From: a virus
Lineage: Duplodnaviria > Caudoviricetes
Length of the DNA: 64,000 nucleotides
Strand: one strand, 5' to 3'
Virus record (IMG/VR): IMGVR_UViG_3300034374_009547
The notes beneath the pieces are model-generated. The model saw only the letters and a list, made by a program, of their open reading frames with translations, was not told where the DNA came from and ran no database searches. The position numbers and the translations under genes were made by a program. Below, piece after piece: positions 1-64,000 of this stretch. Position 1 is the stretch's first letter; each line of letters starts with the position of its first letter.

Positions 1-3000
1 TTGTCTGTAGCACTACGAATAAAAGTTCTGTATCTAAAATCACTAATATTTTTTGACTTTAATGCAAGACCAAATTTTTCATCTGCAACAGGTTCAGGTG
101 AAACAAATCTTTCTAATAAGTTAAAACTATTGTTTGTATCTTTTTTATAAACACTTACATATCCCATATTATTGTAAGGAATAGTATAACCTTCTGCATC
201 AATGTTAATAACATCAACTTCTTCCCAATCTTGACTTAAAAGATTGATTGTGCTACTTTCTGGAATAATGTCTACTTTGGCTCTCCAAAGAGTACCTTTT
301 TGACTTACTATGTCTCCTGTTTCATATGCACCAGCTGGATCTAATACGCCGCGATATCTTGTTGCAACATTTGATGCATCAGGAGAGCCTACAAACAAAT
401 AATTTGAATCTGGTGATATAGAAACACTAGTACCAAATTTACCTAAAGGATCAAATAATAATTTTGCCATATCTCCTCTAGTAGTATGTACTAAAGGATT
501 GTAAACATATGCACCAAATCCAGTTCCGTCTACAGAAGATGTTAATGCCCCATCATTATACAAATTAAGTGTAGTATCGTCAACAACTTCTATGTAATAG
601 TTGTTGTCGTTAATATCAGTCATACCTGGTACATTTGTAAATCTTACTCTTCTACCGTCAACTAAATTATGATTTTCCGATGTAGTAATTACAACAGGAT
701 TAGTTTGAGTAGCATTTGTAATTTCTATAGAAATTTGATCTACTGGAGATAGAGTTTGTATTAGTACAAAATCAGACGCTTCGCTAAGTCTTGCATAAAT
801 GTAAACTTCGCCATCTTCGTATTCAGGTGCGCCAACAGCCATTATTGTATTATTATCGCTTACTGCAATAACGCTACCAAAACCAGTATCTCCTGTTCTA
901 GGGTTTAGTAACTCTTTTTTGAATTCAAAAACAGGTTTGTTATCAAACACTTCAAACTTTCCTGTTCCGTTGTCATCTACCCAAATACGTTCGTTATCTG
1001 TAATATCATATTTTTGCACAATATCATTAATATTTTCAGATGTTGTAACACGTCTTGAATTCATTTGTGTAACAATACCTAATGTGCTATCTGACAAGTC
1101 TATAAACTCATCTGATATAGGTGTATCAAGATATATTTCCATTTTGTTATATGTAATATTTCTTGCTAACCAAAAACCGTTTATTTCATCGTTTATGTTG
1201 TTAAAACCTACAATTTCGCCATCTGCAAATGGAACAGGTTTATCAAATTGTGCTTCAAACCCGTTGGCTGTTTGTGTAATAGACAAAATTCTAATAGGAG
1301 ATTGAATATGCTTGTATACATTCCATGTCTGGTTATTTTCTGGAACCCATACATAATCTCCTATGTCAACTGAATCAACATCTAATGCTAAAATGTCTAC
1401 AAAAGTTTTTGCAATAAAATCAATTTGATCTAATTTTACATAACCACCAGTTTTGCTATATTCTTCTTCTCTGTAAATAACAGGAAATGGTTCGTTATTA
1501 TACTCTGTTGTAGAAAGATATATGTCTTTCTTAGGATACTGGTAAACTAAATCTGTTCTAGTATTATTAACACTTTGTACTAATTCAATAGTTTGAGGTT
1601 CTATTCTAAATTTGCTTTCATCAAGTTGGAATTCAACTTCTTCATAACTGCTAGTAGCACCGTATTGTCCGACACGAATTGCCCATTCTTCAAAGAACTC
1701 TAAACTATCTTTATCAGCACTGCCTAGTTTATCAAATAATTTAGTTAATGCATTATTTGTGCCTTTGTCTTGAATAAAACCTTGATAGAATTTATACTGA
1801 CTAACATCATCTTGAATAATGTTTTGTAAATAATCTCTTTTTTGGTACCCAATCAAATGCTGTGCAAGTCTTTGTTGTTCGCTATCAAAATTATCTGTAT
1901 CTAAATCGTAAAAATCTGTAAACTGATTCGCTTTATAATCCCAGTTAGGCGTTAAGGATTTTTGAGGACGTTCAGGTAAACGTTGCCATAAACTATAATT
2001 AAATTCTTCAGTACCGCTGTGCTTTACATTTGCAGAATAATAAAATTCTTTAAATTTAACTAAATCTCCAATTTGGTAATCTTTCCAACTTTTCCATTCT
2101 GTAACTTTAGAATCATCATACGTAAATCCAGGAATGTTTAAGCTACCGTTCCATCCGTCTGTTCTATAACCTACAACTTTTAAACGTTCTTGTCTATAAC
2201 CAGTTTCAGGATCATATATTGTATCATTGAAAACCGTTTTGTTATCTAAAATAACAACATGCTCTTTTTGAATTAAATTTAATTTACAGAAATAGATACC
2301 TTCATTATCAGATTTTAAACTAAACAAATTTGTTTTGTCTCTAGCAATATTAGACTTTGCATTTTTAATAGGTTTTTTTGATTCGTTTAAAACTGCTCCA
2401 GTAATAGAATCAAAAATATTATCTACAACAAAATATTCACTACTAAACAATAATCTATTAGCACCTGGACTTAATGTTATAACACTATTTTCTGACCAGT
2501 TTTGTGTGGTCCAGAATAAAAATTCTTTAGCACTTAAACTCCAATTTTCTATAGCATTAATTGAAGAATTATAATAATCAAAAACAAATCCTTGGTTTTG
2601 TAATTGTTTACCATATCCAATGATAAAATCAACTACTTCTTGCACACTCGGTAAAATTGTTCCATAGTCTAAAACGCTTACTTGACTTTCAAAGTTTTTA
2701 CGTAATGTTGCAGTTACACCGCCGACAATAGGTAAACTTGATAATAAAGAAAATTTAGAACTATCAAAATCATTTGTACTAGTGTGTGTTTGATTAACTC
2801 TATAGTATTTGTCTTGGTATTGAACTATTTTTCCAGCAACATAAATTTTGTTTTCTGCCCAAGGAATAAAACTTTCACTTATACCGCCAACACTAAAATT
2901 AGGATCATTGGCTGTTGTTCTATGTGCAAAATATTTGAATGTTGGATTTTGATCATCAAATCCATTAATTTTATATCCGCCGCTAACTCTTTCAATTATT

Positions 3001-6000
3001 ATACCACTATAAGTTACAACATCTAACACACTGCTTTTACGTAAACTAATATCATAATTTTCAAAAGGAACAAATACATTTCCTTTATTCAACGGTGTTT
3101 TGCTGTCCAACACAAGTTTTAATTTATTTTTATCTGCAAATCCTGCAAGTTTAAATGCAATTTTATTATCAAATGTTTGTATGTTGGTAATGTATTGACT
3201 ATAATCAGCATCAACGTTTGTGTTGCTATATTCAGTAATCCAATTTACAAATCCACCAGTTATGCAATATCCATCATCTAATTCTTGTTGAGGAAATTTA
3301 ATATCTTGTAATCTTATTGTTTTGTTAGTATCTGCATAAATTAAATCGCCAGACAAATCTCTAGTGATTCTGCTTCTGTCAAAACCAACACCGATTACAT
3401 GAGAAGGTTTTAAAACGATAGCTGCTACCATTAAACTAAACGGATATCCGCTACTACGTCTCCATGCTGTTTCAGTAGGACCATGATCACCAAATTTGAA
3501 AGGTAAAAAATTAGATGTTGTATAACTGAAAGATCTTGAATATCCAGACTCAACAGGGGAAACAACTTGCCCATTGCTATTTACAGGCAAATGCTTTAAC
3601 AAATTTGGACGAACATATTTTGGGTTTATTCTAACAGGTTTATTAGGTTCTCTAATTATACCTTTTGACAAGTCGTTCCATAAAACTAAGTTGTCTGAAG
3701 TATACGGCGCAGGACCATACTGCGCTTCCCACCATGAAGGTTTTATACTAAAACCAATCATTTGCCAAGGTGTTAGGTGCGGAGTATCTGTATCATACGC
3801 AAACTTGTATACTCCTCTCCAAAATCCTGGTAGTTGAACATTACTAGGACTTGTACTTAATCTATAATTGTAAGTAAAAGGAGAACCAAATGTTACAAAA
3901 TCATTATTAGTATAATCTTTTACTTTTGCAATTTTATTCCAATCAAGAAAATCTTTAATCATGATTGCATCTATTTGCCTATTTGTAATTTTAGTATTTC
4001 TATTTTGTCCACCTATAATATCATGAATGTCAAAGATACTAGTGTCATAGGCAACTTTTAAATTGTTGAAAATACGCTTTTCTAATTCTAAAAGTAATTC
4101 ATCTCTGTAATCGTTAAATGCAACGGTTAAACTACCATCATGTCCTTGTATTACTTGAGTAGGTGTGCTATAAGATGTATCTAAAAACTTTTTTGGTTCA
4201 AATGCAGGATACATTCCAATTTTAGTCGGAGTAGGAGGTACAAAGCTACCTTCTGTATTAGCGTATTCAAAAATTTCAATTTCGTCACCATTTGATAAAG
4301 TTGATGTAATTTTTACAAATCCATTTTCATCAAATTCATAATCAATACCGTGAGTTAATTGAATGTTATTAACATAAACGTTTACAGCTTTGTTGCTAAT
4401 TTTTGTTTTATCAAAAAGTTCTGATAATGCATAATACTGATTTCTAAAATCTAAAACTTCATAGGAAAGTTTTTTAGAACCGCCAACACCTAACATGTCT
4501 GAGCTGTAAAAAGGCATACGTTTATTTTTTTCAGAGTTTATAGAATAAAATATTTGATCTACTTGTTCTTTTACATTTCCTGTAAAACTATTTTCTTTTG
4601 CCACTTGTAAAAATAATCTTTTGAACTTTGTATATTCATTTAATGCAAATCTTGCTGCATTTACAATGTTATTTTCTTTTGATACTAAATGATATAGTGC
4701 TAAATTAAACGGACCTGAATGTTTTACAAATTTTCTTCCAAATGGAATAATGTCTCCGAGATCTCTTAAATTATTTTCACCAGGATGAATACCAGAAAAA
4801 TTAGATAGCTCTTGTACTAAACCTTCTACGTGATCGTTTACTTGACCTAATGTAAATTCTATTATATTATTGTTTAATGGATTTCTTTCAAAGTTATGAG
4901 GTATTTCATAATATCCATTTTCATTTTTGTTTGCACTACTATATGTTTTAACAATTACAATGTCTGTAAATTCTATATTTTTATTAAGAACAATTTTACG
5001 AACATTATTTTCATTTATAAATGCATAATCAACACCAGCAATTTTATAATCGTTATTAACAAATACTCGCACATCAATATCAGTTAAATTTGCACTATTT
5101 GTGTAAACATCAATAGGAAAATTATTAGTAAATTCTTCGCCGGTGTATTTTCTTACAACATATTGTCTACTTTTTCTATTGGCTTTTTTCCATGCATTTA
5201 CTAATGTAGTTCCATTATCAGTTTTCTTTAAAAATAATGTATCGCTAGAAATAGTGCCAGTAGTGTTATCAATTTTTTCATAGCTATAAGTTTTATTCAA
5301 CATAGAAAAATCAAATACAATATCACCAATATTAACAAAGTTTTGATAAGTTAATGGAAATCCTAATTCTGTATCGTTAGTTCCTTCTCCAACTCTGTAA
5401 TTAAAAATTCTATTTCCAGTAAAATCATTATTCAAATAATAGTTTGTATCACTTATACTATATCCGTCTTTGTCAAATAAATCAAATAAAGGTGCTTGAT
5501 TAACACCTGATTTATCTTGTGCTAATTTCCACTCAGTTCCGTTGTACCAAAAACTTTTGCCGCCGTTTTTGTTACCTTGGCTTGCAAGTATTGTTTGATC
5601 TAAAATAGGATCGGTATCATCAGTTTCAATTAATGCAATTTGTTTTACATTGTTATGTGTAATAAATTTAACTTGGAAAATTTTTCCGTTTACAAGATAA
5701 TCTTGATCTGCTGTAAACAAAACACGCATGCCTTCCGCTAAATCTATTCCATCAACATTATATCCTACACTGCCTTCGATTGTAGACATTACATCTTTTG
5801 TAAAATTGTCAACAAGATTTACGTTTTGTTTAAATGTAGTGCCGTGATTGTATAAACGTAAATTTGGCTCAAATTCAATAATTGGACGTTTTGCTCTTGA
5901 ACTTTGATCTAATTCTAAAAGTTGATTATTAATCTCAGCACTTTTAACAATTACATCTCTATGGAACCATTTGTTATATCTAGCCCATGCATTTTTACTA

Positions 6001-7232: not shown

Positions 7233-7234
7233 TA

Positions 7235-10690: not shown

Positions 10691-10715
10691 TTGCACTTAT
10701 CCTCGCTGTATAGTA

Positions 10716-10721
10716 TATTTA
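10716..10721 (-). promoter_or_regulatory. Putative late promoter core (TAAATA)
   Basis: TAAATA in the short intergenic gap upstream of the gp6-like gene. The same motif recurs upstream of many virion genes. Confidence 0.55.
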
Positions 10722-10744
10722 CCTGATATGATAAAGTGCGTAGT

Positions 10745-11179
10745 TTAAATTAAACCGTTGTTTTGATCAAATCTTAATCGTAATGTTTCTGTAATGCTGT
10801 ATGGCAAATATGTAATACTACAATCAATTTGAATACCACTTTCGTATGTATCAATAATAATATCTTTAACATTAACACGAGGATCATAATTTATTATTTC
10901 TGTGACATTTTTAATAATTGCTTGTTTTACATCTTCTGTAAACGGTTCAAAAAGTATATCCCAAATAATTGTTCCAAATTTAGGATTTTCTAACTTTTCT
11001 CCTTGACGAATATGGAAATGATTTATAATATCTTGTTTAATAATTGCAATATCATATAAATTAAAGTTTTTTGAATTAGCTACCGTGCTAATACCTCGAT
11101 AGGTTTTACTTGCAGGAATAGAATCTTTCTTTCCTTCAATGGTAATATTTTTGTATAAGGGTTTTTCACTTGTAGCCAT
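10745..11179 (-). CDS. gp25: Baseplate wedge protein, GPW/gp25 family
   Basis: 144 aa; IIKQDIINHFHIRQGEKLENPKFGTIIWDILFEP...EIINYDPRV matches the gp25 family signature (R.GE....P.FG......LFEP, ..EPRV). Confidence 0.85.
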   Translation of the reverse strand: MATSEKPLYKNITIEGKKDSIPASKTYRGISTVANSKNFNLYDIAIIKQDIINHFHIRQGEKLENPKFGTIIWDILFEPFTEDVKQAIIKNVTEIINYDPRVNVKDIIIDTYESGIQIDCSITYLPYSITETLRLRFDQNNGLI

Positions 11180-11183
11180 AACG

Positions 11184-11189
11184 TATTTA
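11184..11189 (-). promoter_or_regulatory. Putative late promoter core (TAAATA), 4 nt before the ATG (leaderless)
   Basis: Minus strand reads TAAATA-CGTT-ATG(11179). Confidence 0.55.
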
Positions 11190-12350: not shown

Positions 12351-12366
12351 GTTGTTACCCTCATAA

Positions 12367-18248: not shown

Positions 18249-19262
18249 TTGTTTAAAAAAGCAGCAGTATTTACTGACATACATTTAGGTATGAAAGGTA
18301 ATAGTCGTGTCCATAATCAGGACTGCGAAAGTTATATTGATTGGTATATTGAAACAGCAAAAGCAAATAATTGCGAAACAGGCATCTTTTGCGGTGACTG
18401 GCATCACAATAGAAATAGTCTCAACCTCACAACCATGGATACAACCATTAGATTGTTAGAGAAACTAGGCGAATCGTTTGATAAGTTCTATATGTTTGCT
18501 GGTAATCACGACTTGTATTACAAAGACAAGCGTGATGTAAAGTCAACTGAGTTTGCAAAACACATACCAGGCATTACTATGGTAGATGAAATGCAAGTTA
18601 TTGATGATGTTGCACTAGTTCCGTGGTTAGTAGGCGATGAATGGCGTAGAATCGAGAAATTACAAGCCAAATACCTGTTTGGACACTTCGAACTACCATC
18701 GTTTTATATGAATGCTATGGTACAAATGCCAGATCACGGTGAACTAAAGTCGGAACACTTCAAGAATCAAGAGTATGTGTTCAGTGGCCACTTCCACAAG
18801 CGTCAGAAGCAGGGTAAGATCCACTATATCGGTAATGCTTTCCCGCACAACTATGCAGATGCTTGGGATGATGACCGTGGTATGATGATATTGGACCGCG
18901 AGAACGATGCGGAACCCGAATATGTTAACTGGCCAGAGTGTCCCAAGTACCGTACCGTTAAGTTATCACAACTAATTGACGAAAAAGATACATTAATCAA
19001 ACCAAATATGTACTTGAGAGTTACACTTGATATTGATATTAGCTTTGAAGAAGCAACATATATCAAAGAAACATTCATTGACACATATAATTGTAGAGAG
19101 ATTACACTGATTCCTCAAAAACACATTGAGGAAATTAACACAGACTTGGATATTGAACAATTTGAAAGTGTAGATCAAATTGTTAGTAACGAGATCCAAG
19201 CAATTGACAGCGAACAATTTAATAAGAAATTGTTATTAGACATATACAACGAGCTAGTATGA
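18249..19262 (+). CDS. gp47: Recombination endonuclease subunit, gp47/Mre11/SbcD-like metallophosphoesterase
   Basis: Motifs DIH, GDWHH, GNHD, GHFE and SGHFH. TTG start with GGAG SD. Overlaps gp46 (ATGA). Confidence 0.92.
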   Translation: MFKKAAVFTDIHLGMKGNSRVHNQDCESYIDWYIETAKANNCETGIFCGDWHHNRNSLNLTTMDTTIRLLEKLGESFDKFYMFAGNHDLYYKDKRDVKSTEFAKHIPGITMVDEMQVIDDVALVPWLVGDEWRRIEKLQAKYLFGHFELPSFYMNAMVQMPDHGELKSEHFKNQEYVFSGHFHKRQKQGKIHYIGNAFPHNYADAWDDDRGMMILDRENDAEPEYVNWPECPKYRTVKLSQLIDEKDTLIKPNMYLRVTLDIDISFEEATYIKETFIDTYNCREITLIPQKHIEEINTDLDIEQFESVDQIVSNEIQAIDSEQFNKKLLLDIYNELV

Positions 19263-21034
19263 TTAAAATTAAAGACTTAACCGTAAAAAACTTTATGAGT
19301 GTGGGTAATGTCACCCAAGCAGTTGACTTTAATAAAGAACAACTTACTTTGGTACTTGGTGAAAACTTAGACCAAGGCGGAGACGATACAGGATCACGTA
19401 ATGGTACTGGTAAAACTACTATTATTAATGCATTATCATATGCATTGTACGGTACAGCATTAACAAACATTAAACGCAATAACTTAATCAATAAAACTAA
19501 CAGCAAAGGCATGCTGGTTACCCTTAATTTTGACAAAGGTGGTAACAGCTATCGTATCGAACGCGGTAGATCTCCAAATGTTCTTAAGTTTTATATTAAC
19601 GAACACGAACAAGAAGATTTAACAGACGAATCACAAGGCGATAGTCGTAAAACACAAGAAAGTATTAATAATTTATTAGATATGAGTCACGATATGTTTA
19701 AACATGTGGTTGCACTCAACACATACACAGAGCCTTTTCTTAGTATGAGAGCAAATGACCAACGTGCTATCATTGAACAGCTACTTGGTATTACTATTCT
19801 TACCGAAAAAGCAGATTTGTTAAAAGAAAAAGTTAAACAAACTAAAGATTTTATCACAGAAGAAACTCTAAAGATCAATGCTATAGAAGCAAGCAACAAG
19901 AAAATTGAATCTAGCATTGAAACACTTGTAGGTAGACAACGTGCTTGGGAATCAAAACGCAGAGACGATGTTAAAAAACTTGAAACTGCTATTGAAGAAT
20001 TAGAAAAACTAGATATTGATACAGAATTAGAAGCACACGACAAACTAACTAATTGGACAGAACTGAATAATCGCATAACTAGTTTGAATAAAGAAAAAGC
20101 AACACTAGAAGCAGCACTTATGAGAGCAACCAAAGGTGTTGACAAAGCAGAAAAGGATATTAAAGAACTTGACGATGCTATTTGTTACACTTGCGGTCAA
20201 ACGCTTCATGCGGAAAAGAAAGCAGAAATTGAAACTACAAAACAAAAAGAATTAAGCGATGCACTTGCTTATCAAACAGAAGTTGCAGACAAATTAGAAG
20301 CAACTATGAACTTATTAACAGAAATTGGTGACATCAACGGACGTCCTAACACGTTTTATGAGAGTGCTAAAGAAGCATACGAGCATAGAAACAACGTAGA
20401 TAATTTACGCAATTCGCTGATAAGTAAACAGCAAGAAGAAGATCCATATCTAGCACAAATCGATGACTTAAAAACAACAGCACTACAAGAAATCAATTGG
20501 CAACCTGTAAATAATCTTACTAACTTGCGTGAACATCAGGAGTTTCTGCTGAAACTTTTGACAAACAAAGACTCGTTCATTCGCAAAAAGATTATTGATC
20601 AGAACTTGGCGTACTTGAACAATAGGCTCACATACTATTTAGACAAACTAGGCTTGCCACATCAAGTAGAATTCCAAAACGATTTGTCAGTTGAGATTAC
20701 ACAGCTAGGACAAGACTTGGACTTTGATAACTTGTCTCGAGGCGAACGCAACAGGCTAATATTAGGCATGAGCTGGGCATTCCGTGATGTTTGGGAATCG
20801 TTGTATCAAGGCATCAACTTGTTGTTCATCGACGAACTTATCGACTCAGGTATGGACACTGCTGGTGTTGAAAATGCGCTCGCTGTACTCAAAAAGATGG
20901 GTAGAGAGCGTAGCAAAAATGTTTTCCTTATCTCACACAAAGACGAACTTGTTGGTAGAGTCAATCATGTAATGAAAGTTATCAAAGAGAATGGCTTTAC
21001 TTCATATGAAAACGATATCGATATTGTAGAATGA
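19259..21034 (+). CDS. gp46: Recombination endonuclease ATPase subunit, gp46/Rad50/SbcC-like
   Basis: Walker A GTGKTT, coiled coil with CYTC zinc hook, signature LSRGE, Walker B LLFIDE, H-loop ISHK. Confidence 0.93.
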   Translation: MIKIKDLTVKNFMSVGNVTQAVDFNKEQLTLVLGENLDQGGDDTGSRNGTGKTTIINALSYALYGTALTNIKRNNLINKTNSKGMLVTLNFDKGGNSYRIERGRSPNVLKFYINEHEQEDLTDESQGDSRKTQESINNLLDMSHDMFKHVVALNTYTEPFLSMRANDQRAIIEQLLGITILTEKADLLKEKVKQTKDFITEETLKINAIEASNKKIESSIETLVGRQRAWESKRRDDVKKLETAIEELEKLDIDTELEAHDKLTNWTELNNRITSLNKEKATLEAALMRATKGVDKAEKDIKELDDAICYTCGQTLHAEKKAEIETTKQKELSDALAYQTEVADKLEATMNLLTEIGDINGRPNTFYESAKEAYEHRNNVDNLRNSLISKQQEEDPYLAQIDDLKTTALQEINWQPVNNLTNLREHQEFLLKLLTNKDSFIRKKIIDQNLAYLNNRLTYYLDKLGLPHQVEFQNDLSVEITQLGQDLDFDNLSRGERNRLILGMSWAFRDVWESLYQGINLLFIDELIDSGMDTAGVENALAVLKKMGRERSKNVFLISHKDELVGRVNHVMKVIKENGFTSYENDIDIVE

Positions 21035-21288
21035 CAGACGACACGCATGATAAATTAATGCAAAAGGTACTAGACTACTTGGCTGCCAGCGAAGACTTTG
21101 AACGTTTACCAAGTGAACGCAGTAAAAGACGCATACGCAGAGAACTACGTGAACTAGTTACTTTGTGTAGACAACGAGCTGAAGAAGCTAAACAGAGATA
21201 CAAAGAGGAGTTAGCCGAAATACGTGCCAGTGGCAAGTGGGCTGTCAATATTGGCAAGGCTAATCACGAAAGGAAAAAGAAAAAATGA
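21031..21288 (+). CDS. Hypothetical protein (85 aa, helical, basic C-terminus)
   Basis: ATGA overlaps with both neighbours, suggesting translational coupling. Confidence 0.7.
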   Translation: MTDDTHDKLMQKVLDYLAASEDFERLPSERSKRRIRRELRELVTLCRQRAEEAKQRYKEELAEIRASGKWAVNIGKANHERKKKK

Positions 21289-32096: not shown

Positions 32097-32720
32097 ATGA
32101 GACTACTGAACGAACATTTGAGCTTTGATGCTGCTAAAATGGTTGTTGAGTCTGCCAACGAAGGCAAAGATCTTTACATGAAAGGTATTTGCATTCAAGG
32201 CGGAGTACGCAACGCAAATCAGCGTGTTTATCCCGTTAACGAGATTGGCAGGGCTGTCACCACACTCAACGAACAAATTAGTGGTGGCTACTCAGTGTTA
32301 GGCGAAGTAGATCATCCAGATGGACTTAATATTAACTTAGATCGTGTAAGCCATATGATTACAGAAATGTGGATGGATGGCCCAAACGGTTACGGTAAAC
32401 TAAAAGTACTACCAACTCCGATGGGACAATTAGTTAAAACAATGCTAGAAAGCGGCGTTAAACTAGGTGTTTCATCGAGAGGTAGTGGTAATGTAAGCGA
32501 AAGCGGTAACGGTGAAGTATCAGATTTTGAAATTATTACCGTAGACGTTGTGGCGCAGCCAAGTGCGCCAGGCGCATACCCAACACCGATATACGAACAC
32601 CTTATGAACACCCGAGGAGGGTATAAGGCGTTCCAAACATCAAGGGAAGTTCAAGGCGACAAACAGGCACAAAAATATTTAAAAGAGAGCTTATTAGATG
32701 TAATAAGCAAACTCCGCTAA
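32097..32720 (+). CDS. gp21: Prohead protease, T4 gp21-like
   Basis: NANQRVYP, LGEVDHP, NLDRVSH, KLGVSSRGSG and DVVAQPSAPGAY. Confidence 0.93.
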   Translation: MRLLNEHLSFDAAKMVVESANEGKDLYMKGICIQGGVRNANQRVYPVNEIGRAVTTLNEQISGGYSVLGEVDHPDGLNINLDRVSHMITEMWMDGPNGYGKLKVLPTPMGQLVKTMLESGVKLGVSSRGSGNVSESGNGEVSDFEIITVDVVAQPSAPGAYPTPIYEHLMNTRGGYKAFQTSREVQGDKQAQKYLKESLLDVISKLR

Positions 32721-32737
32721 CTAGGAGAGGATATAAA

Positions 32738-33829
32738 ATGTTAGATGCACTAAAATCACTCTTCGAAAACACTGCACTATCGGAAGAAGTGCGCTCAGAA
32801 CTAGAAGAAGCATGGAACGCAAAGGTGAAAGAAAATCGCCTTCAGGTCACTGCGGAACTACGTGAAGAATTTGCTAAAAAGTATGAGCATGATAAAGACA
32901 CAATGGTTGAAGCCATTGATGCTATGATGACTGAGAAACTTAGCGAAGAAATTGCAGAATTCCAAGAAGATCGTAAGCAATTAGCTGAAGCAAAAGCAAA
33001 ATTTGCTATTGCACAGCGTAAAAATGCTAATCTAATGAAATCATTTGTTAGTGAACAACTAGCAAAAGAAATCAAAGAACTACACTCAGATCAAAAAGCA
33101 ATGGCTGACAAGTTTGTTGCTCTAGAAGAGTTTGTAGTTGAGTCGCTTGCAAAAGAACTTGCAGAGTTTTATGAAGACAAAAAAGATCTTGCTGAAACAA
33201 AAGTACGTCTTGTACGTGAAGGCAAAGCTCATGTCAATAAAGTTAAAAAAGACTTTATTGAAAAAAGTGCAGCGTTGGTATCTGAAACCGTGTCAAAAGG
33301 TCTTAAAAAAGAGATCTCGGCACTTAAAGAAGATATTGATCAAGCACGTAAAAATGATTTCGGTCGTAAATTATTCGAAGCATTTGCTAACGAATATTCA
33401 CATAGCTATTTAAATGAGAAATCAGAAACAGCTAAACTTTTAAAAGTTATTGACGCAAAAGACAAGCAACTTTCAGAAGCTAAAAATGTGGCGGCGAAAG
33501 CAGTAAAACTTGTGGAAAACAAAGAATCGCAAATTAAAACAATTAACGAATCGGTGGCCCGCAAAGAAACAATTAGCGGTCTAATCTCACCATTGAGCAA
33601 AGACCAACAATCAATTATGATGGATTTACTGGAATCAGTTCAAACAGCAAAACTACGTTCTGCTTTTGATAAGTATCTACCGGCAGTATTAGACGGTAAA
33701 GGTCCAGCAAAACAAAAGGCAGTATTAGCAGAGGCAAAAGAAGTAACAGGCAACAGAACACAAAATGACGTAAAAGCAGACGTAGATCACAATGTGATTG
33801 ATATAAAACGTCTAGCTGGATTAAATTAA
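32738..33829 (+). CDS. gp22: Prohead scaffolding/core protein, T4 gp22-like
   Basis: Coiled-coil E/K/A-rich 363-aa protein between the protease and the major capsid gene, with AGGAGAGG SD. Confidence 0.8.
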   Translation: MLDALKSLFENTALSEEVRSELEEAWNAKVKENRLQVTAELREEFAKKYEHDKDTMVEAIDAMMTEKLSEEIAEFQEDRKQLAEAKAKFAIAQRKNANLMKSFVSEQLAKEIKELHSDQKAMADKFVALEEFVVESLAKELAEFYEDKKDLAETKVRLVREGKAHVNKVKKDFIEKSAALVSETVSKGLKKEISALKEDIDQARKNDFGRKLFEAFANEYSHSYLNEKSETAKLLKVIDAKDKQLSEAKNVAAKAVKLVENKESQIKTINESVARKETISGLISPLSKDQQSIMMDLLESVQTAKLRSAFDKYLPAVLDGKGPAKQKAVLAEAKEVTGNRTQNDVKADVDHNVIDIKRLAGLN

Positions 33830-33839
33830 GGAGAAACCT

Positions 33840-35012
33840 ATGTCAGAACTACTAGAAAGTCGCTGGCAAGATACAAAAACAGCACTTCTTGAAGGCCTAT
33901 CAGGCAATAAGAAAGCAGTAATGGCTTCAACATTAGAAAATACTCGCAAGTATTTGGCTGAAACTGCAACTGCTGGTGCTACATCTGCCGGTAACATCGC
34001 AACACTTAACCGTGTTATCCTACCAGTGATTAGACGTGTTATGCCAACCGTCATCGCTAATGAAATCGTTGGTGTTCAACCAATGACTGGACCAGTTGGT
34101 CAAATTCACACACTACGTGTTCGCTACAGCGACACAGCAGGCTCAGGCGCAGCAGGCGCAGTAGCTGGTGAAGAAGCACTATCACCATTCAAAATCGCAG
34201 AAGCATATTCAGGTAATGCTACAACAGCAAAAGCTGATGCAACTGCGGCACTAGAAGGTGCAGCTGGTAACAGACTAAGCATCCAGATCTTGAAACAGAC
34301 CGTGGAAGCTAAATCACGTAAGCTATCAGCACGTTGGACATTTGAAGCGGCACAAGACGCTCAAGCACAACACGGTATCGACGTAGAAGCAGAAATCATG
34401 GCTGCACTAGCACAAGAGATTACTGCAGAAATCGACCAAGAGATTCTAGCATCTCTAAACACACTAGCAGGAACAGGTACAGACACATTTAACCAAGCGG
34501 CTGTATCAGGTACTGCAACATTCGTTGGTGACGAACATGCTGCACTAGCAGTATTAGTTAACCGCGCAGCAAACCGCATCGCACAGCGTACACGCCGTGG
34601 TGCAGGTAACTGGGCTGTTGTTTCACCAGCAATCCTAACCGTACTACAAAGTGCAACTACATCAGCATTTGCACGTACTACAGAGGGTACATTTGAAGCA
34701 CCGACAAACACAAAAATGGTTGGTACATTGAACAATGCAATGAAAGTATATGTAAACACATATGCAGCAGACGACGATGTACTAGTTGGTTACAAAGGTA
34801 CTAGCGAATCAGACGCAGCAGCGTTCTACTGCCCATACATCCCATTGATGAGCAGTGGCGTTGTACTAGATCCGACATCATTCGAACCAGTTGTGAGCTT
34901 CATGACACGTTACGGATATGTTGAGCTATCAAACACAGCATCGTCGCTAGGTAACGCAGCTGACTACCTAGAAAAGGTAGAAGTAAACAGCGGAAACCTA
35001 AGCTTCAGCTAA
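33840..35012 (+). CDS. gp23: Major capsid protein, T4 gp23-like
   Basis: VIRRVMPTVIANEIVGVQPMTGPVGQI, VEAKSRKLSARWTFEAAQD, EITAEIDQEI, FYCPYIPL and TRYG. Confidence 0.95.
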   Translation: MSELLESRWQDTKTALLEGLSGNKKAVMASTLENTRKYLAETATAGATSAGNIATLNRVILPVIRRVMPTVIANEIVGVQPMTGPVGQIHTLRVRYSDTAGSGAAGAVAGEEALSPFKIAEAYSGNATTAKADATAALEGAAGNRLSIQILKQTVEAKSRKLSARWTFEAAQDAQAQHGIDVEAEIMAALAQEITAEIDQEILASLNTLAGTGTDTFNQAAVSGTATFVGDEHAALAVLVNRAANRIAQRTRRGAGNWAVVSPAILTVLQSATTSAFARTTEGTFEAPTNTKMVGTLNNAMKVYVNTYAADDDVLVGYKGTSESDAAAFYCPYIPLMSSGVVLDPTSFEPVVSFMTRYGYVELSNTASSLGNAADYLEKVEVNSGNLSFS

Positions 35013-59343: not shown

Positions 59344-59348
59344 AATTA

Positions 59349-59377
59349 AGATAGCCGGATTTTTCGGCTATCTATTT
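59349..59377 (+). terminator. Probable intrinsic terminator after the fibre gene
   Basis: AGATAGCCGGA-TTT-TTCGGCTATCT hairpin followed by ATTT (short U tract). Confidence 0.65.
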
Positions 59378-59404
59378 GACACAATGTAAATAGTATGTTA
59401 TTAT
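59376..59404 (+). promoter_or_regulatory. sigma70-type promoter with extended -10, overlapping late-promoter cores
   Basis: TTGACA(59376-81)-N17-TATTAT(59399-404) with TG at 59396-97. TAAATA at 59387-92 and 59409-14. Confidence 0.7.
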
Positions 59405-59423
59405 AGAGTAAATAGGAAATAAT

Positions 59424-59603
59424 ATGGCACTACCAGCAACTGGATCTACGATTAGTATGACAAACATCAACAATTATTTTGTTGCTGGTGGTTTTACATC
59501 TTCTTTTGTTTTAAGTGTATTAGGTACATACATCGGAATTTCTGCTGGTACTACAATAAGTATGAGTAGTTCGTTTGGTGGTTATTATTTCCCAGCAACT
59601 TAG
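59424..59603 (+). CDS. Unannotated 59-aa fibre-associated protein
   Basis: Hand translation: MALPATGSTISMTNINNYFVAGGFTSSFVLSVLGTYIGISAGTTISMSSSFGGYYFPAT*, with AGGA SD. Below the ORF-track length cutoff. Confidence 0.75.
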   Translation: MALPATGSTISMTNINNYFVAGGFTSSFVLSVLGTYIGISAGTTISMSSSFGGYYFPAT

Positions 59604-59611
59604 GAGTTACA

Positions 59612-59992
59612 ATGAAATCTTTATACGAAGTGTTAAACATTGATTTAGCACAAGAATATACTAAAACTAGAAAACTAGCAAAATTACAAACACTAGAAAT
59701 CAGCGATGCTCAACTAGAAATTGAAGTTAAAAAAGCAATTGATAGCATGGATATTCCAGACGACGACGATCGTTATCATTGGATTCAAAAACTAGGTCAC
59801 GCAGCAGGTGCAGATTTGCTTACTATTGGTAAAGTACAACCTGAAAATATGCTTGCAATGGCAGCATTAAATGCTGATGATTTTCAAGAAGCAGTAAAAG
59901 TAGCTACAGGTACTGCACGTAATTGGAACAAACAAACTATTGAAGCTGAAAAGCAACTAGCAGAAGAATCTATGCCAACAACTATCTTGTAA
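59612..59992 (+). CDS. Hypothetical protein (126 aa)
   Basis: AGGAG SD, translationally coupled (TAATG) to the next gene. Confidence 0.75.
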   Translation: MKSLYEVLNIDLAQEYTKTRKLAKLQTLEISDAQLEIEVKKAIDSMDIPDDDDRYHWIQKLGHAAGADLLTIGKVQPENMLAMAALNADDFQEAVKVATGTARNWNKQTIEAEKQLAEESMPTTIL

Positions 59993-60576
59993 TGAAACTA
60001 GCAATTTGTGTTCCAACAAGAGACACGGTACATACATTATTTGCAGTAAGTTTGTGTAATCTTACAAACACACTTACAAAAAACAATATAGATTTTAATG
60101 TCCATATTGTTGCAGGAAGTGTAATATGCAATAGTCGAACTAGATTAGCCAAAGAAGCATTAGAAACAGGTGCAACACATTTGCTTTGGTTAGATAGTGA
60201 TATGGCTTTTGCATCAAATGTTGTAGAACAACTACTAAACCACAACAAAGACATAGTGGCTGCAAATTACAGCACACGGTATGCTCCTTATCAAAGTGTT
60301 GCTTTTGTAGACCCTGACGATATGGATTGTAGATTAAATGCAACCAATGGTTTACATAAAGTTTGGGCTGTAGGCATGGGTTGTATGCTTGTAAAATCAC
60401 AAGTTTACAAAGATTTACCAAAGCCTTGGTTTGATCACGAATATAATAAAAAATTAGACAACTTCAGCGGCGAGGATATATATTTTTGTAATCAGGCGAT
60501 GCATCACGGTTATGAAGTATATGTTGATGCAGATGTAAAATTATCGCATATAGGAATAAAGGCAAACACATTATGA
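59992..60576 (+). CDS. Glycosyltransferase family 2-like (GT-A) protein
   Basis: KLAICVPTRD, SRTRLAKEAL..GATHLLWLDSDM (DxD), VGMGCMLVK, GEDIYFC and HIG. Confidence 0.8.
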   Translation: MKLAICVPTRDTVHTLFAVSLCNLTNTLTKNNIDFNVHIVAGSVICNSRTRLAKEALETGATHLLWLDSDMAFASNVVEQLLNHNKDIVAANYSTRYAPYQSVAFVDPDDMDCRLNATNGLHKVWAVGMGCMLVKSQVYKDLPKPWFDHEYNKKLDNFSGEDIYFCNQAMHHGYEVYVDADVKLSHIGIKANTL

Positions 60577-63206
60577 CAACAGCTTTTTCAGTTTTTGATA
60601 AATTTCAAACTAATCTTCACAATGGACAAGATTATTTAAAAAATCACATATTTGATAAATTTCCTATTTTATATACAGATAATCCAAATGATTTAACACA
60701 AGTTTGGGATAGAAATCTTGATACTGAATATGTTTGGCTTGTTGATAAAAACATAAAAATTTATGATAGTTTTCCTTGGTTTTTTAGACCAAAGCCTGAT
60801 GCACAAGTAGCAATTCATGCCTATCCATATGTTTATAAAAAAAGTAGAGATGTTAAAGACTGGAACAGAGTAAGATTAGTTCCTACAAAACCAGGAGAAT
60901 ATGAAGTAACTCAACATCCTCACATTTGTGGACATTATGATCCATACAAAGGTGTTGACAAGTTTGATATCTTTTACATTGGAAAAAACAAAGACAATTT
61001 AAAGCAACTTGAAGAAAGAGGTTTGAGTATACAGGTTGTTGAAGACTATGAATCTGCTAGACAACAAAGTTATACTGATATGTTTTGGATTGTTTATGAT
61101 GACACCGTTGTAAGAGAAACTTTTAAATTTAGTTATACACCTGACGAATGGAGCACAGATTTTGTTCATGTGTTTGGAAATGGTGATATTGATACATTAG
61201 ATGGAATTGCTCTGTGTCCAAAAAGTTACAATCCTAGCAAAAAAGAATTAGACAATAGATTTTTTATTAATAAAAAAGAAATAAGAATTTTAGCAAGTAA
61301 TCCAAGAAAATACGATAAGTTTGAAATGGACAACTATCAATCATATCTACATATGATGCGTCATAGTACCACAGATTTATTTTGGGGAATTCCTAAGGAT
61401 ATTGTAATTGATGATAATTTTAAATTTGATTTTTATATTCCATATCACAATGTTGCAGATAAAAAACAAAATCATGCTTGGCTAAATGGTAACAAATATG
61501 ACGGAATTTATTTGTTCAGCAAAGAAGCAATCATTACAGAAAATGAATTTAACTATAGATTTTTAGTTAATAAAATTGAACATGATGTTGTAGCAAGTAA
61601 ACCAAAAGACTTTGAAAGATTTACAATCGATACTTACGAACAATATAGAAGTGCAATTGAAAGCTGCGGTACAAGTATGTTTTGGGCTATCCCTAGTGAC
61701 GTAAAAGTATCACCGGATTTTGCTTGGGATGAATATATTAACAATCTTGATAGTTTAGATAGAAGTACTAACCATGTATTTTTAAACGGTGATAGTTACG
61801 ATGGTATTGTGTTAATGAACACAAAAGAATTTGTAAATGATAAAGAAATTAGACATAGATTTTATACCAATAAAAAAGAACATGAAGTAATTGCAAGTAC
61901 ACCAAAACCTTACGATAAATTTACAATTGATACATACGAAGATTACACTACAGCATTGTATCATACAGAATCTGAAATGTTTTGGGGTGTCCCTAGTGAT
62001 GTTAATGTTGCTGAAGATTTTGACTTTAGTTTATATTTTAGCTATCATAATCAATACGATCGTAATATGAATCACGTGTTTTTAAATGGAGAAAATTATG
62101 ATGGTATTGTTTTATATAGTAAAAACTTATTAGTTAGTGAAAAAGAAATTGAACATAGGTTCTACATTAAGAAAAAAGAATGGGAAGTAATTGCAAGTAA
62201 TCCTAAACCTTTCCCTGTGTATACAATTAATGATTATGAAGATTATTTGAATGTAAAAAATGAAACTAGTGCTGATATGTTTTATATGATTAATGATAAT
62301 ATAAATTTGAAAGATGAATTTAATTTTGATTTGTATATTAGTCATCATAATCAGTACGAACGTAAAATTAATCATGTTTGGAAAAATGGAGAATTTTATG
62401 ATGGTGTTGCACTTACAAGTAAACACATCAATTTAAGTCAAAGAGAAATTGATTATAGATTTTATGCTGTAAAAAAAGAATACGAAGAAATTGCAAGTTT
62501 ACCTGTGCCTTATGATATTGTTTTTATTCAAAACGGTGAGCCAAATGCTGACGAAAACTATGCTACACTTTTACAAAGATTTCCCCGTGCTAAACGTGTT
62601 CAAAACATCAAAGGTATACACCAAGCACACCAACGAGCAGCAGAACTTGTTGACACTGAAATGTTTTGGGTTGTAGACGCAGATGCAGAAATATTAGAAG
62701 AATTTGATTTTAATTATTATGTTCCTGCATACGATATTGATGGTAAGGATACCGTACATGTATGGCGTAGTTTCAACCCTGTTAACGGATTGGTATACGG
62801 GTATGGTGGAGTTAAATTATTGCCAACAAGGCTAACACGTACAATGGATATGACTACAACTGACATGACTACAAGTATCAGTGATAAGTTTAAAAGTATT
62901 CCTGCAATGAGTAATGTTACAAACTTTAATACAGATGCCTATAGTGCATGGCGCAGCGGATTTAGAGAATGCGCAAAGTTAGCAAGTAAAACAATTGCAA
63001 GACAGGAAGACGACGAAACTGAATTTAGACTTAATGCTTGGTGTACCAGAGGCGACGATAAACCGTTTGGTAGAGCAGCAATTGCTGGTGCAAAAGCAGG
63101 TCGAGAATTTGGCGAAACTTACAAAGACAATAAAGAAGAATTAGAAAAAATTAACAATTTTCATTGGTTACACGACCAGTTTATAAAATTATATCAATCA
63201 ACTTAA
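60573..63206 (+). CDS. Multi-repeat glycosyltransferase-like protein (877 aa)
   Basis: Tandem ~120-aa units (..F.IDTYE.Y...MFW.....V...F.F..Y...HVFLNG..YDGI.L...EI..RF...K..EVIAS.PK). The final unit has MFWVVDAD (DxD) and NPVNGLVYGYGGVKL. Confidence 0.7.
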   Translation: MTTAFSVFDKFQTNLHNGQDYLKNHIFDKFPILYTDNPNDLTQVWDRNLDTEYVWLVDKNIKIYDSFPWFFRPKPDAQVAIHAYPYVYKKSRDVKDWNRVRLVPTKPGEYEVTQHPHICGHYDPYKGVDKFDIFYIGKNKDNLKQLEERGLSIQVVEDYESARQQSYTDMFWIVYDDTVVRETFKFSYTPDEWSTDFVHVFGNGDIDTLDGIALCPKSYNPSKKELDNRFFINKKEIRILASNPRKYDKFEMDNYQSYLHMMRHSTTDLFWGIPKDIVIDDNFKFDFYIPYHNVADKKQNHAWLNGNKYDGIYLFSKEAIITENEFNYRFLVNKIEHDVVASKPKDFERFTIDTYEQYRSAIESCGTSMFWAIPSDVKVSPDFAWDEYINNLDSLDRSTNHVFLNGDSYDGIVLMNTKEFVNDKEIRHRFYTNKKEHEVIASTPKPYDKFTIDTYEDYTTALYHTESEMFWGVPSDVNVAEDFDFSLYFSYHNQYDRNMNHVFLNGENYDGIVLYSKNLLVSEKEIEHRFYIKKKEWEVIASNPKPFPVYTINDYEDYLNVKNETSADMFYMINDNINLKDEFNFDLYISHHNQYERKINHVWKNGEFYDGVALTSKHINLSQREIDYRFYAVKKEYEEIASLPVPYDIVFIQNGEPNADENYATLLQRFPRAKRVQNIKGIHQAHQRAAELVDTEMFWVVDADAEILEEFDFNYYVPAYDIDGKDTVHVWRSFNPVNGLVYGYGGVKLLPTRLTRTMDMTTTDMTTSISDKFKSIPAMSNVTNFNTDAYSAWRSGFRECAKLASKTIARQEDDETEFRLNAWCTRGDDKPFGRAAIAGAKAGREFGETYKDNKEELEKINNFHWLHDQFIKLYQST

Positions 63207-63615
63207 ACAAATCTAATAATTTAGTTCTATTTCTTTTAACACGTAATGTATTTTGTAATCCGTGATGCAATGGCTTTGGCCACTTATCAAATGAAGTCCA
63301 AGCATATCCATCGTGTTCTCCGTTTAGCTTAGGCATAAATTCTTCTTGCACTATACACAAATATGTGTGAAAATGGAAGTGTTCGTCATTACTAATAAAT
63401 GTTTCTAATGGAATAGTTTTTTTAATATTAGGTATAAAAGATATTTCTTCTTGTATTTCACGTTTCAATCCTTCCCAAGGTGTTTCGGTTCCTTCGTTAG
63501 TACCGCCAACTAATCCCCATAGGTTTTTTGCTTTACCCTGAGTACGATGTAAAAATAAAAAACGTTTTGTTTCTAATGAATAAAATAGTGCACCACTACA
63601 AATAATTTTCTGCAT
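63181..63615 (-). CDS. Nudix hydrolase
   Basis: Nudix box GGTNEGTETPWEGLKREIQEEI. ATG 63615 (MQKIICSGALF) is preferred over the track start 63669. Confidence 0.88.
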   Translation of the reverse strand: MQKIICSGALFYSLETKRFLFLHRTQGKAKNLWGLVGGTNEGTETPWEGLKREIQEEISFIPNIKKTIPLETFISNDEHFHFHTYLCIVQEEFMPKLNGEHDGYAWTSFDKWPKPLHHGLQNTLRVKRNRTKLLDLFKLIDIIL

Positions 63616-63628
63616 AAAAATAATTATT

Positions 63629-64000
63629 TTATAATTGTATACGCCATGTTCCTCTTGGATAATATCCATCTACACTGCTTTGCCAATAATATTGATTCCA
63701 ATAATATTGTTGTCCATTATCTAAATTAGTAATATATGTTTTTCCAGATTCACTAGCATCAAAAACAATATTCCATTTTGATCCGTCCCATTCGATAATG
63801 TCATTCGCATCTGCTACAAAGTCAGAGTTGTCTAAATTTTTCCACGCATCTGCTCCATCTTCGTTTAAGTTTAAGATGTAAACAATTTTGTCATCAACTG
63901 ATGGCATTTCGTCTAAGTCTATTACAAACTTATCATCAATATTACGTGACGTTGAAGAAACAGGAATATCATTAATAACAACTTGCCAACTTGTTACCGT
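63629..64000 (-). CDS. C-terminal part of a probable virion protein (possibly neck/tail completion), truncated by the right edge
   Basis: Frame is open to the window end (TVTSWQVVINDIP...DIIEWDGSKWNIVFDAS...YYPRGTWRIQL*). The functional guess is weak. Confidence 0.6.
   Translation of the reverse strand, partial: TVTSWQVVINDIPVSSTSRNIDDKFVIDLDEMPSVDDKIVYILNLNEDGADAWKNLDNSDFVADANDIIEWDGSKWNIVFDASESGKTYITNLDNGQQYYWNQYYWQSSVDGYYPRGTWRIQL

What the first reader, a model, noticed from the sequence alone, without database searches (positions are those of the whole stretch)
1..64000. Apparent window-wide avoidance of ACWGT (ACAGT/ACTGT), with forced ACC/ACG codons at Thr-Val junctions
Seen in sequence: Thr is normally ACA/ACT in this AT-rich genome. 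Yet every Thr-Val dipeptide I inspected (over 50, in gp46, gp47, the halogenase, protease, scaffold, capsid, both giant fibres and the GT genes) is ACC-GTN or ACG-GTN. Examples: GAAACCGTT, GGTACGGTT, TTAACCGTA, CCAACCGTC, GATACGGTA. Asn/Asp-Ser and Asn/Tyr-Cys junctions I noticed also used AGC/TGC. I noticed no ACAGT or ACTGT while reading, though I did not count exhaustively. A simple base-composition estimate would predict on the order of 100 sites. ACCGT/ACGGT are abundant, so the avoided site is ACWGT, not the ACNGT of HpyCH4III-type enzymes. Inference: selection against a host restriction or defence system, or against a phage-encoded nuclease that destroys host DNA. The small GIY-YIG is a candidate for the latter: Hpy188I is a small GIY-YIG enzyme cutting a 5-bp pseudopalindrome, and T4 EndoII is a stand-alone GIY-YIG that attacks host DNA.
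Basis: partly seen in the sequence, partly recalled or inferred. Interest (0 to 1): 0.72.

Follow-up and report, generated by a model that had tools for sequence, protein, structure and literature searches.

The report
Phage genome purged of ACWGT
An uncultured aquatic giant phage has removed every copy of the 5-letter DNA word ACWGT by silent codon changes, while its closest relatives have each removed a different short palindrome, which is the classic footprint of escaping bacterial restriction enzymes, here pointing to an enzyme specificity I could not find described.

Summary
ACAGT/ACTGT occur 0 times in the 64-kb window, where 111±7 are expected from codon shuffles and 113-193 from Markov nulls. 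They also occur 0 times in 46 kb of flank that I recovered, so 110 kb is free of the word (184-319 expected), in several independent assemblies.

The loss is real selection on the DNA word. Thr before GT is ACC/ACG in 77 of 77 cases, Ser after NAC is AGC in 32 of 32, and Cys after NAC is TGC in 8 of 8. Gln and Leu in an A_T context are never CAG or CTG. All one-letter neighbours of the word are present, and ACSGT is in 3-fold excess.

The trait is lineage-specific. Of 156 related loci, 64 totally lack some palindrome, and the word differs between close kin (CATG, GTAC, CTAG, AATT, AGCT, CTNAG, GCWGC, CTGCAG, TTTAAA and others). A co-occurring sister phage has 0 GTAC but normal ACWGT. Total loss is about 220-fold enriched for palindromes.

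The best explanation is avoidance of a host orthodox Type II restriction enzyme that cuts ACWGT.

This is a known kind of counter-defence, which this scan has already logged in other phage genomes and on the overlapping window of this genome.

The parts
1..64000 (.). Stretch with no ACAGT or ACTGT on either strand. It continues for at least 46.3 kb beyond position 64000 in the source contig.
   Evidence: 0 observed; 111-193 expected. (the flank is also 0).
22951..23376 (+). 141-aa SegE-type GIY-YIG protein.
   Evidence: PF19835, E 5.7e-33. PHROG homing-endonuclease families. No PDB match to Hpy188I, Eco29kI or EndoII. 48 of 51 carriers keep ACWGT.
23268..23272 (+). ACAAT inside the GIY-YIG gene, at the position where 27 of 38 homologous gene copies read ACWGT. 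All three ACWGT-avoiding genomes read ACAAT here (a silent CAG to CAA change).
   Evidence: and the sequence read.
18249..21034 (+). gp47/gp46-like (SbcD/SbcC-type) genes, used to place the window next to L132, a second ACWGT-free genome.
   Evidence: Pfam Metallophos and AAA_23/SMC_N. Tree (94% aa identity, SH-aLRT 87).
32097..35012 (+). Prohead protease, scaffold and major capsid genes, used for the phylogeny that shows different avoided words within one tight clade.

Best explanation
This is restriction-site avoidance. The phage lineage reproduces in host strains that carry an orthodox (dimeric, palindrome-reading) Type II restriction-modification system specific for ACWGT. Any phage genome with an unmethylated ACWGT is cut on entry. 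Mutations that create the word are therefore removed, and existing copies have been replaced by silent codon changes until none is left. With no site, the phage is invisible to the enzyme whatever host it last grew on. Shown here: the total, genome-scale, synonymous and lineage-specific loss of one exact palindromic word, and the parallel loss of other classical restriction words in sister lineages. Inferred: that the agent is a nuclease, that the host encodes it, and that it is a Type II enzyme.
For: (1) There are 0 sites in the 64-kb window against 111+/-7 expected from codon shuffles, and 0 in the 110 kb of window plus flank against 184-319 expected from Markov nulls. (2) Escapes are silent and change a different motif position in each reading frame. 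All neighbours of the word are present and ACSGT is in excess. (3) 143 related loci from two independent samplings have observed/expected about 1. Only L132 (0 of 25) and L106 (0 of 12) share the trait. (4) 64 of 156 related loci of at least 7 kb lack some other palindrome completely: CATG, GTAC, CTAG, AATT, AGCT, CTNAG, GCWGC, CTGCAG, GTGCAC or TTTAAA. One 132.6-kb relative has 0 of 400 expected CATG. (5) Five different forbidden words occur within the window's own clade of 11 rows. A co-occurring sister phage seen in at least 7 assemblies has 0 of 67 GTAC and 51 of 52 ACWGT. (6) Near-absence hits 55 of 5,375 palindromic tests but only 6 of 128,875 non-palindromic tests. This matches the published rule that avoidance is mostly against orthodox Type II sites in non-temperate dsDNA phages (PMC6286503). 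(8) The same genome also shows significant partial depletion of CATG, AGCT, CTGCAG, GTGCAC, AAGCTT and GCTAGC, as expected from a host population with many restriction systems.
Against: The host is unknown, so no cognate methyltransferase, nuclease or methylated ACWGT motif has been seen. I found no described enzyme with ACWGT specificity, but REBASE itself could not be queried. Earlier notes on this genome report a 7-deazaguanine (DpdA-type) DNA-modification locus upstream of the window. DpdA3-type systems can replace all guanines and block many enzymes whose sites contain G (PMC10516641), so it is not obvious why a G-containing site must still be avoided. About 90 kb of the source contig, and perhaps 240 kb of the genome, were not examined, so a phage-encoded agent is not excluded.
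Confidence: 0.72

Rival explanations
1. The nuclease is encoded by the phage. It cuts ACWGT in host DNA, or in co-infecting sister phages, and the phage protects itself by lacking the word rather than by methylation.
For: No DNA methyltransferase appears among the called genes of the 46-kb flank, and no N6/N4 or C5 methyltransferase hit appears in five long relatives. Sister phages with mutually exclusive forbidden words occur in the same waters.
Against: Both nuclease-fold genes found fail the association test. GIY-YIG: 48 of 51 carriers keep ACWGT. The TnsA-like protein is a core head-closure-type gene (phrog_218), and 63 loci carrying it have 2305 ACWGT observed against 2160 expected. No gene is shared only by the ACWGT-free genomes in the regions they have in common. 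I know of no precedent for a nuclease-only, avoidance-protected system in phages.
Confidence: 0.1
2. A host defence that reads ACWGT on modified DNA: a Type IV-like or modification-tolerant enzyme acting on 7-deazaguanine-substituted DNA. Base modification fails against it, and only loss of the site helps.
For: Earlier notes place a DpdA-type locus in this genome (not verified here). FolE is present in 4 of 5 long relatives and QueD in 1. Full guanine replacement normally blocks enzymes with G in their site (PMC10516641), yet the word is still purged.
Against: Neither the modification nor its extent has been shown for this phage. The Pfam TGT model found nothing in five relatives, though it may miss DpdA3. 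An avoided word without G (AATT, TTTAAA) in relatives shows that the phenomenon does not need guanine modification.
Confidence: 0.1
3. It is a sequencing or assembly artefact, in which a modified motif is systematically miscalled.
For: The genome may carry modified bases (earlier notes). The missing ACWGT is roughly matched by the extra ACSGT.
Against: The substitutions are silent in all three frames and hit different motif positions: 3, 4, 5 or 2, or a Ser codon-family switch. There are only 3 CGG codons in total, so CAG is not being read as CGG. Independent JGI, ENA and Logan assemblies give the same result. Diverged genomes L132 and L106 also lack the word.
Confidence: 0.01
4. It is mutational decay, for example deamination of a methylated cytosine in ACWGT, or a constraint at the RNA or translation level, rather than selection against DNA cleavage.
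For: C to T changes (positions 2 and 4 of the word) are among the escapes.
Against: 77 of 77 Thr-Val junctions escaped by W to S transversions at position 3, which deamination cannot produce, and position 5 changes are as common. Decay gives depletion, not 0 of about 190. The ban covers all three frames of genes on both strands. Forbidden words differ between near-identical relatives that share the same translation needs.
Confidence: 0.03

Closest known systems
Restriction-site (palindrome) avoidance in non-temperate dsDNA phages, as surveyed by Rusinov et al. 2018 (PMC6286503)
   Same: Complete elimination of a short palindromic word, by silent changes, in a large virulent-type dsDNA phage. 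The signal is restricted to palindromes, as that survey found for orthodox Type II sites.
   Different: The host and its enzyme are unknown. Only one word is fully purged here, not dozens.
ACNGT enzymes (HpyCH4III / Tsp4CI / TaaI type). ACNGT systems are listed in the REBASE-derived table of PMC6286503
   Same: A 5-bp pseudo-palindrome with the same outer letters, AC..GT.
   Different: ACCGT and ACGGT are not avoided here but are in 3-fold excess, so the agent must require A or T at the centre. I found no enzyme described with that specificity, and REBASE was not available.
   Same: The window encodes a small stand-alone GIY-YIG protein.
   Different: It belongs to the SegE/homing-endonuclease family. 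It has no detectable similarity to solved GIY-YIG restriction enzymes. Its distribution is unrelated to ACWGT avoidance. Most copies of its gene contain the site.
Chlorovirus-encoded restriction-modification systems, such as the CATG- and GTAC-specific enzymes (from my own knowledge; chlorovirus methyltransferases are reviewed in PMC7248222, listed)
   Same: A virus-side nuclease that attacks short palindromes of the same kind (CATG, GTAC) in host DNA would be the model for the phage-encoded rival.
   Different: Chloroviruses protect themselves with cognate methyltransferases, not by deleting the word. I found no such nuclease or methyltransferase gene here.

Membership tests
Restriction-site avoidance against orthodox Type II R-M | The word is significantly under-represented against a null that keeps composition and coding. 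| tested here: met
   0 against 110.7+/-7.0 (codon shuffle); z = -10.6; 0 against 184-319 in 110 kb.
Restriction-site avoidance against orthodox Type II R-M | The word is a short (4-6 bp) palindrome or pseudo-palindrome, and asymmetric words are not purged. | tested here: met
   ACWGT is self-complementary as a class. Near-absent words: 55 of 5,375 palindromic tests against 6 of 128,875 asymmetric tests.
Restriction-site avoidance against orthodox Type II R-M | Sites are removed at the DNA level without changing proteins. | tested here: met
   Frame-specific silent escapes.
Restriction-site avoidance against orthodox Type II R-M | The trait is specific to a lineage or host rather than a family-wide compositional trait. 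| tested here: met
   Relatives have observed/expected about 1. Other words are purged in sister lineages. The CTTA, AACC and CACA depletions are shared background.
Restriction-site avoidance against orthodox Type II R-M | A cognate R-M system of that specificity is present in the host. | not testable with these tools
   The host is unknown. MetK gave no host signal. REBASE was not available. The literature searches were negative.
Restriction-site avoidance against orthodox Type II R-M | The phage is a non-temperate dsDNA phage. | tested here: inconclusive
   T4-like portal, baseplate, sheath, terminase and gp46/47 genes, and no integrase family among the called genes of 110 kb. The rest of the genome was not seen.
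GIY-YIG restriction or host-DNA-degrading nuclease as the cause (Hpy188I, Eco29kI, T4 EndoII) | A GIY-YIG catalytic domain is present. | tested here: met
   PF19835 SegE_GIY-YIG, 5.7e-33.
GIY-YIG restriction or host-DNA-degrading nuclease as the cause (Hpy188I, Eco29kI, T4 EndoII) | Sequence kinship with those enzymes. | tested here: not met
   phmmer against all PDB chains at E up to 10 returned only an unrelated gene 33 protein at E 0.13. The PHROG hits are homing endonucleases.
GIY-YIG restriction or host-DNA-degrading nuclease as the cause (Hpy188I, Eco29kI, T4 EndoII) | Presence of the gene goes with absence of its target word in the same genome. | tested here: not met
   48 of 51 carrier contigs have normal ACWGT counts. 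27 of 38 gene copies contain ACWGT.
ACNGT (HpyCH4III-type) specificity | All four central letters are avoided. | tested here: not met
   ACSGT 172 observed against 55 (dinucleotide null) or 140 (maximal-order null).

The most novel reading that the evidence does not exclude
Each lineage of this abundant aquatic jumbo-phage group carries its own restriction-like nuclease without a methylase. It protects itself simply by not containing the target word (ACWGT here, GTAC or CATG in sister phages). It uses the enzyme to destroy host DNA and the genomes of co-infecting sister phages. On this reading the forbidden words are weapons of phage-against-phage competition rather than scars of host defence.
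Probability: 0.07. Interest if true: 0.85.

Novelty: new member of a known kind. Interest (0 to 1): 0.5.

Why it matters
Restriction-site avoidance is textbook, so the mechanism itself is not new. Three things make this case useful.

First, the purged word, ACWGT, matches no enzyme I could find. If REBASE confirms this, it predicts a new Type II specificity in an uncultured aquatic host. The prediction can be tested by looking for ACWGT methylation in long-read metagenomes from the same waters, which would also name the host.

Second, at least a dozen different forbidden words alternate among near-identical, co-occurring relatives of one jumbo-phage group. This gives a culture-free readout of strain-level restriction diversity in the host population and of how quickly phages re-tool.

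Third, the genome reportedly also replaces its guanines with a 7-deazaguanine. If that holds, site avoidance marks the enzymes that this modification does not stop.

Tried and rejected
- **Own contig, first attempts.** Megablast of 21 kb against GenBank phages found no match. A 46-mer from the window's start was not in the JGI metagenome collection. The own contig was reached only by exact-protein look-up.
- **Tool limits.** The ACWGT pattern is too short for the genome search. Metagenome records are not searchable there.
- **Upstream walk.** It failed because the 1153-aa product is not on record. About 90 kb of the contig, including the reported deazaguanine locus, was therefore not examined.
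- **Literature.** No paper pairs ACWGT with methyltransferase, restriction or endonuclease; all hits are degenerate primers. It is absent from the held supplements of Blow 2016 and Rusinov 2018, but the two Rusinov files that held any of the searched motifs were cut when stored and ACNGT is also absent from the former, so this is weak evidence.
- **Host identification.** MetK is about 50% identical to many phyla and gave no signal. There is no tRNA in the window.
- **Rfam.** A scan of the window found nothing.
- **Shared escapes.** The window and L132 share too few Thr-Val sites to test whether their escapes are inherited.
- **Population variants.** In four runs, 0 of 40 listed variants create ACWGT, but only 0.5 would be expected and contigs of related phages are mixed in. 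The test has no power.
- **Other anti-restriction genes.** The TGT, N6/N4-methylase and C5-methylase families are absent from five long relatives, but these are 38-53% fragments and Pfam TGT may miss DpdA3.
- **Mosaic contig L227/L229.** Its left part is GTAC-free and its right part ACWGT-free. Only one assembly shows the junction, so I treat it as a possible chimera and draw no conclusion about viability.
- **Rejected readings.** The base-calling artefact, methyl-cytosine decay and codon-pair readings are rejected for the reasons given under the rival explanations.


Full report
**What the window is.** The 64-kb window is the virion-structure region of an uncultured aquatic jumbo myovirus. 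It has a T4-type portal (PF07230), baseplate proteins, gp46/gp47-like nuclease subunits, a prohead protease, a scaffold and a major capsid protein. It also has two giant fibre genes, a tryptophan halogenase and a radical SAM enzyme. The capsid protein is 65-69% identical to those of GAP32, PA5oct, Vibrio phage 2.275.O and Sinorhizobium phage Phosso. It is 80-95% identical to hundreds of IMG/VR contigs. The window matches, with 0 mismatches over the 10.8 kb compared, a 201,730-bp JGI metagenome contig (3300025828, Ga0208547_1000001). Near-identical copies lie in other JGI and ENA assemblies. Twenty public runs from 16 studies, labelled freshwater, aquatic or marine, hold it.

**Observation.** ACAGT and ACTGT each occur 0 times.
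- Expected numbers are 113 (maximal-order Markov), 135 (base composition) and 193 (dinucleotide).
- Shuffling synonymous codons within each gene gives 110.7 +/- 7.0, and never fewer than 93 in 500 shuffles.
- ACWGT is the only absent 5-mer and the strongest outlier (z -10.6).
- Every single-letter neighbour (NCAGT, ANAGT, ACANT, ACAGN) is at or above expectation. ACCGT+ACGGT number 172 against 55 from the dinucleotide null.
- The word is therefore exactly A-C-W-G-T. It is not explained by a shorter or longer motif and is not ACNGT.

**Out-of-window replication.** I walked beyond the window's end by exact-protein look-ups and obtained 46,302 further bases. They also hold 0 sites (71-127 expected). 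That gives 110,302 contiguous bases without the word, where 184-319 sites are expected.

**Selection, not artefact.** The codon context is all-or-none.
- Thr followed by GT is ACC or ACG in 77 of 77 cases. Elsewhere these two codons make up about 7% of Thr.
- AGY-Ser after NAC is AGC in 32 of 32 cases, and Cys after NAC is TGC in 8 of 8.
- Gln between a codon ending in A and one starting with T is CAA in 38 of 38 cases. Leu in that context is never CTG.
- Only 3 CGG codons exist in the window's 37 genes, so CAG has not been misread as CGG.

I also looked at 63 aligned positions where relatives have ACWGT and the amino acids are the same. There the window changes motif position 3 when the word starts a codon, and position 4 in the third frame. 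In the second frame it changes position 5 or 2, or switches Ser codon family. A miscalled modified base would give one substitution regardless of frame. Methyl-cytosine decay would give C to T changes, not the W to S transversions seen at all 77 Thr-Val junctions. Independent assemblies agree, and Logan contigs of one run reproduce stretches of up to 7.3 kb with 0-2 differences.

**Lineage specificity.** Eighty capsid-linked relatives have observed/expected about 1. So do 48 of 51 contigs found through the GIY-YIG gene (1126 observed, 1162 expected over all 51), and 63 loci found through a TnsA-like gene (2305 observed, 2160 expected).
- Two other genomes share the trait: L132 (18.3 kb, 0 of 25) and L106 (10.3 kb, 0 of 12).
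- L132 is the window's sister in a gp46+gp47 tree (94% aa identity, SH-aLRT 87), yet 27% of its identical-residue codons differ. The ban has therefore been kept through substantial divergence.
- L106 is ACWGT-free on a far more divergent backbone; one neighbouring gene is only 48% identical.

**The decisive context.** Relatives have purged other words.
- Of 156 related loci of at least 7 kb, 64 have at least one palindrome at 10% of expectation or less, usually at 0.
- The words include CATG, GTAC, CGCG, CTGCAG, ACWGT, GCWGC, CTAG, CTNAG, AATT, AGCT, TTTAAA and GTGCAC. CATG and GTAC are the commonest. The loci are not all independent phages.
- One relative lacks CATG over its whole 132.6-kb contig (0 of 400) and is strongly depleted in AGCT (55 of 381). 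A 186-kb relative has no forbidden palindrome.
- The window's starred clade of 11 rows in the protease+scaffold+capsid tree holds five different forbidden words (ACWGT, CATG, GTAC, TTTAAA, CTGCAG+GTGCAC) and three members with none.
- A sister phage seen in at least seven assemblies has 0 of 67 GTAC and 51 of 52 ACWGT. The window's phage has 402 GTAC sites in the 110 kb and no ACWGT.
- In an unbiased scan of all 4- to 6-mers over 103 sequences, near-absence hit 55 of 5,375 palindromic tests and 6 of 128,875 asymmetric tests.
- This matches the published survey finding that avoidance concerns orthodox Type II sites in non-temperate DNA phages (PMC6286503).
- The depletions of CTTA, AACC and CACA in the window are shared by all relatives and are background. 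Partial depletion of CATG (222 of 372), AGCT (247 of 376), CTGCAG (16 of 47), GTGCAC (2 of 23), AAGCTT (2 of 15) and GCTAGC (0 of 11) suggests further or past restriction pressures.

**The GIY-YIG candidate.** The 141-aa protein (22951-23376) is a SegE-type GIY-YIG domain (PF19835, 5.7e-33) that matches PHROG homing-endonuclease families. phmmer found no solved GIY-YIG restriction enzyme among all PDB chains. A 40-mer of its gene occurs exactly in 51 IMG/VR contigs, and 48 of these have normal ACWGT counts. The gene is also a natural experiment. At gene position 317, 27 of 38 copies read ACWGT, and all three ACWGT-avoiders read ACAAT. At position 120, 28 of 38 copies read TTTAAA, and the two TTTAAA-avoiders read TTCAAA. 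A nuclease that cut ACWGT would cut its own gene in most carriers.

**Other phage-encoded candidates.** A second nuclease-fold gene lies just past the window: a TnsA-like PD-(D/E)xK protein of 145 aa (PF08722, 7e-24). It matches the phage head-closure family phrog_218 and has relatives in at least 475 contigs, so it is a core gene and is not associated with the trait. No gene is shared only by the ACWGT-free genomes in the regions they have in common. No DNA methyltransferase or restriction-type family appears among the called genes of the flank. The two Methyltransf_21 genes there sit in a sugar-nucleotide cluster.

**Mechanism.** The best reading (about 0.72) is that host strains carry a dimeric Type II restriction enzyme with a protecting methylase for ACWGT. 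A single unmethylated site exposes the incoming genome to cleavage, so the lineage that lives on these strains has been cleared of the word by silent substitution and is kept clear. The word statistics, the silent escapes, the phylogenetic turnover and the palindrome bias are shown. The nuclease, its host location and its type are inferred.

I did not find an ACWGT-specific enzyme in the held literature or in the partial REBASE-derived tables. The nearest known specificity is ACNGT. From memory I also know of none, but REBASE must be checked.

**An open point.** Earlier notes of this scan place a 7-deazaguanine (DpdA-type) modification locus 73-86 kb upstream in this genome. I could not reach that DNA. 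FolE is present in four of five long relatives and QueD in one, while the Pfam TGT model found nothing. DpdA3 systems can replace all guanines, and such DNA resisted many enzymes with G in their site (PMC10516641). If this phage modifies its guanines, then either the modification is partial or context-dependent, or the ACWGT-reading agent tolerates or needs the modified base. Alternatively, the ban may predate the modification.

**Verdict.** This is a new member of a known kind. It has a possibly undescribed specificity and an unusually clear picture of sister phages carrying different forbidden words. The scan has logged restriction-word purging in at least eight other phage genomes, and it noted this same ACWGT ban on the overlapping window of this genome.

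Noticed in passing
window 22951-23376, and L081-L131: The GIY-YIG gene is 94-96% identical in DNA between lineages whose flanking DNA is only 73-83% identical, and an exact 40-mer is shared by 51 contigs. This looks like a homing-endonuclease gene spreading laterally through the phage group.
   Followed up: partly
window 23377-23841: About 460 nt of ORF-free sequence, GC-richer than its flanks and apparently structured, lies just downstream of the GIY-YIG gene. It has no Rfam match at gathering threshold. Indels cluster here in diverged populations (table 4).
   Followed up: partly
L227 / L229 (ENA ERZ27275062 k141_723101): This is a mosaic contig. Its left 13.7 kb is the sister-phage type (34 ACWGT, 0 GTAC) and its right part is the window type (0 ACWGT, 24 GTAC). 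The switch lies inside a DEAD/ResIII helicase gene. Only one assembly shows the junction, so it is either a rare recombinant or an assembly chimera.
   Followed up: partly
L228, L230-L235: A co-occurring sister phage, present in at least 7 independent assemblies, lacks GTAC completely (0 of 67) and has normal ACWGT counts (51 of 52). This is the mirror image of the window's phage.
   Followed up: yes
window plus 46-kb flank (merged 110,302 bp): Several other restriction-type palindromes are partly depleted in the same genome: CATG 222 of 372, AGCT 247 of 376, CTGCAG 16 of 47, GTGCAC 2 of 23, AAGCTT 2 of 15 and GCTAGC 0 of 11. These may be further or past restriction pressures.
   Followed up: partly
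L140:11684-12121 (about 9.4 kb beyond the window's end): A 145-aa TnsA-like PD-(D/E)xK nuclease-fold protein (PF08722) lies 3.2 kb upstream of the terminase gene. It matches the phage head-closure family phrog_218 and is conserved in at least 475 related contigs.
   Followed up: partly
window 21285-22928: The tryptophan halogenase gene (PF04820, 2e-77) has homologues in only about 10 of the related loci that cover this region, so it is a variable accessory gene in this phage group.
   Followed up: no
L236-L242 (G008, the record behind L072): This 132.6-kb relative has 0 of 400 expected CATG and only 55 of 381 AGCT, so two 4-bp words are under selection in one genome. G006 (186 kb) has no forbidden palindrome.
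   Followed up: yes
related loci of at least 10 kb: A few asymmetric words are also nearly absent in single relatives (CACTC in two loci; ACGGC, ACGCC, ATTGAG and CACGA in one each). These could be Type IIS-like targets or chance.
   Followed up: no
G006, G007, G009, G010 (records behind L061, L063, L059, L123): GTP cyclohydrolase I (FolE) is present in 4 of 5 long relatives, and QueD in one. One FolE carrier is a CATG-avoider. Precursor genes for 7-deazaguanine may therefore be common in the group and can coexist with site avoidance.
   Followed up: partly
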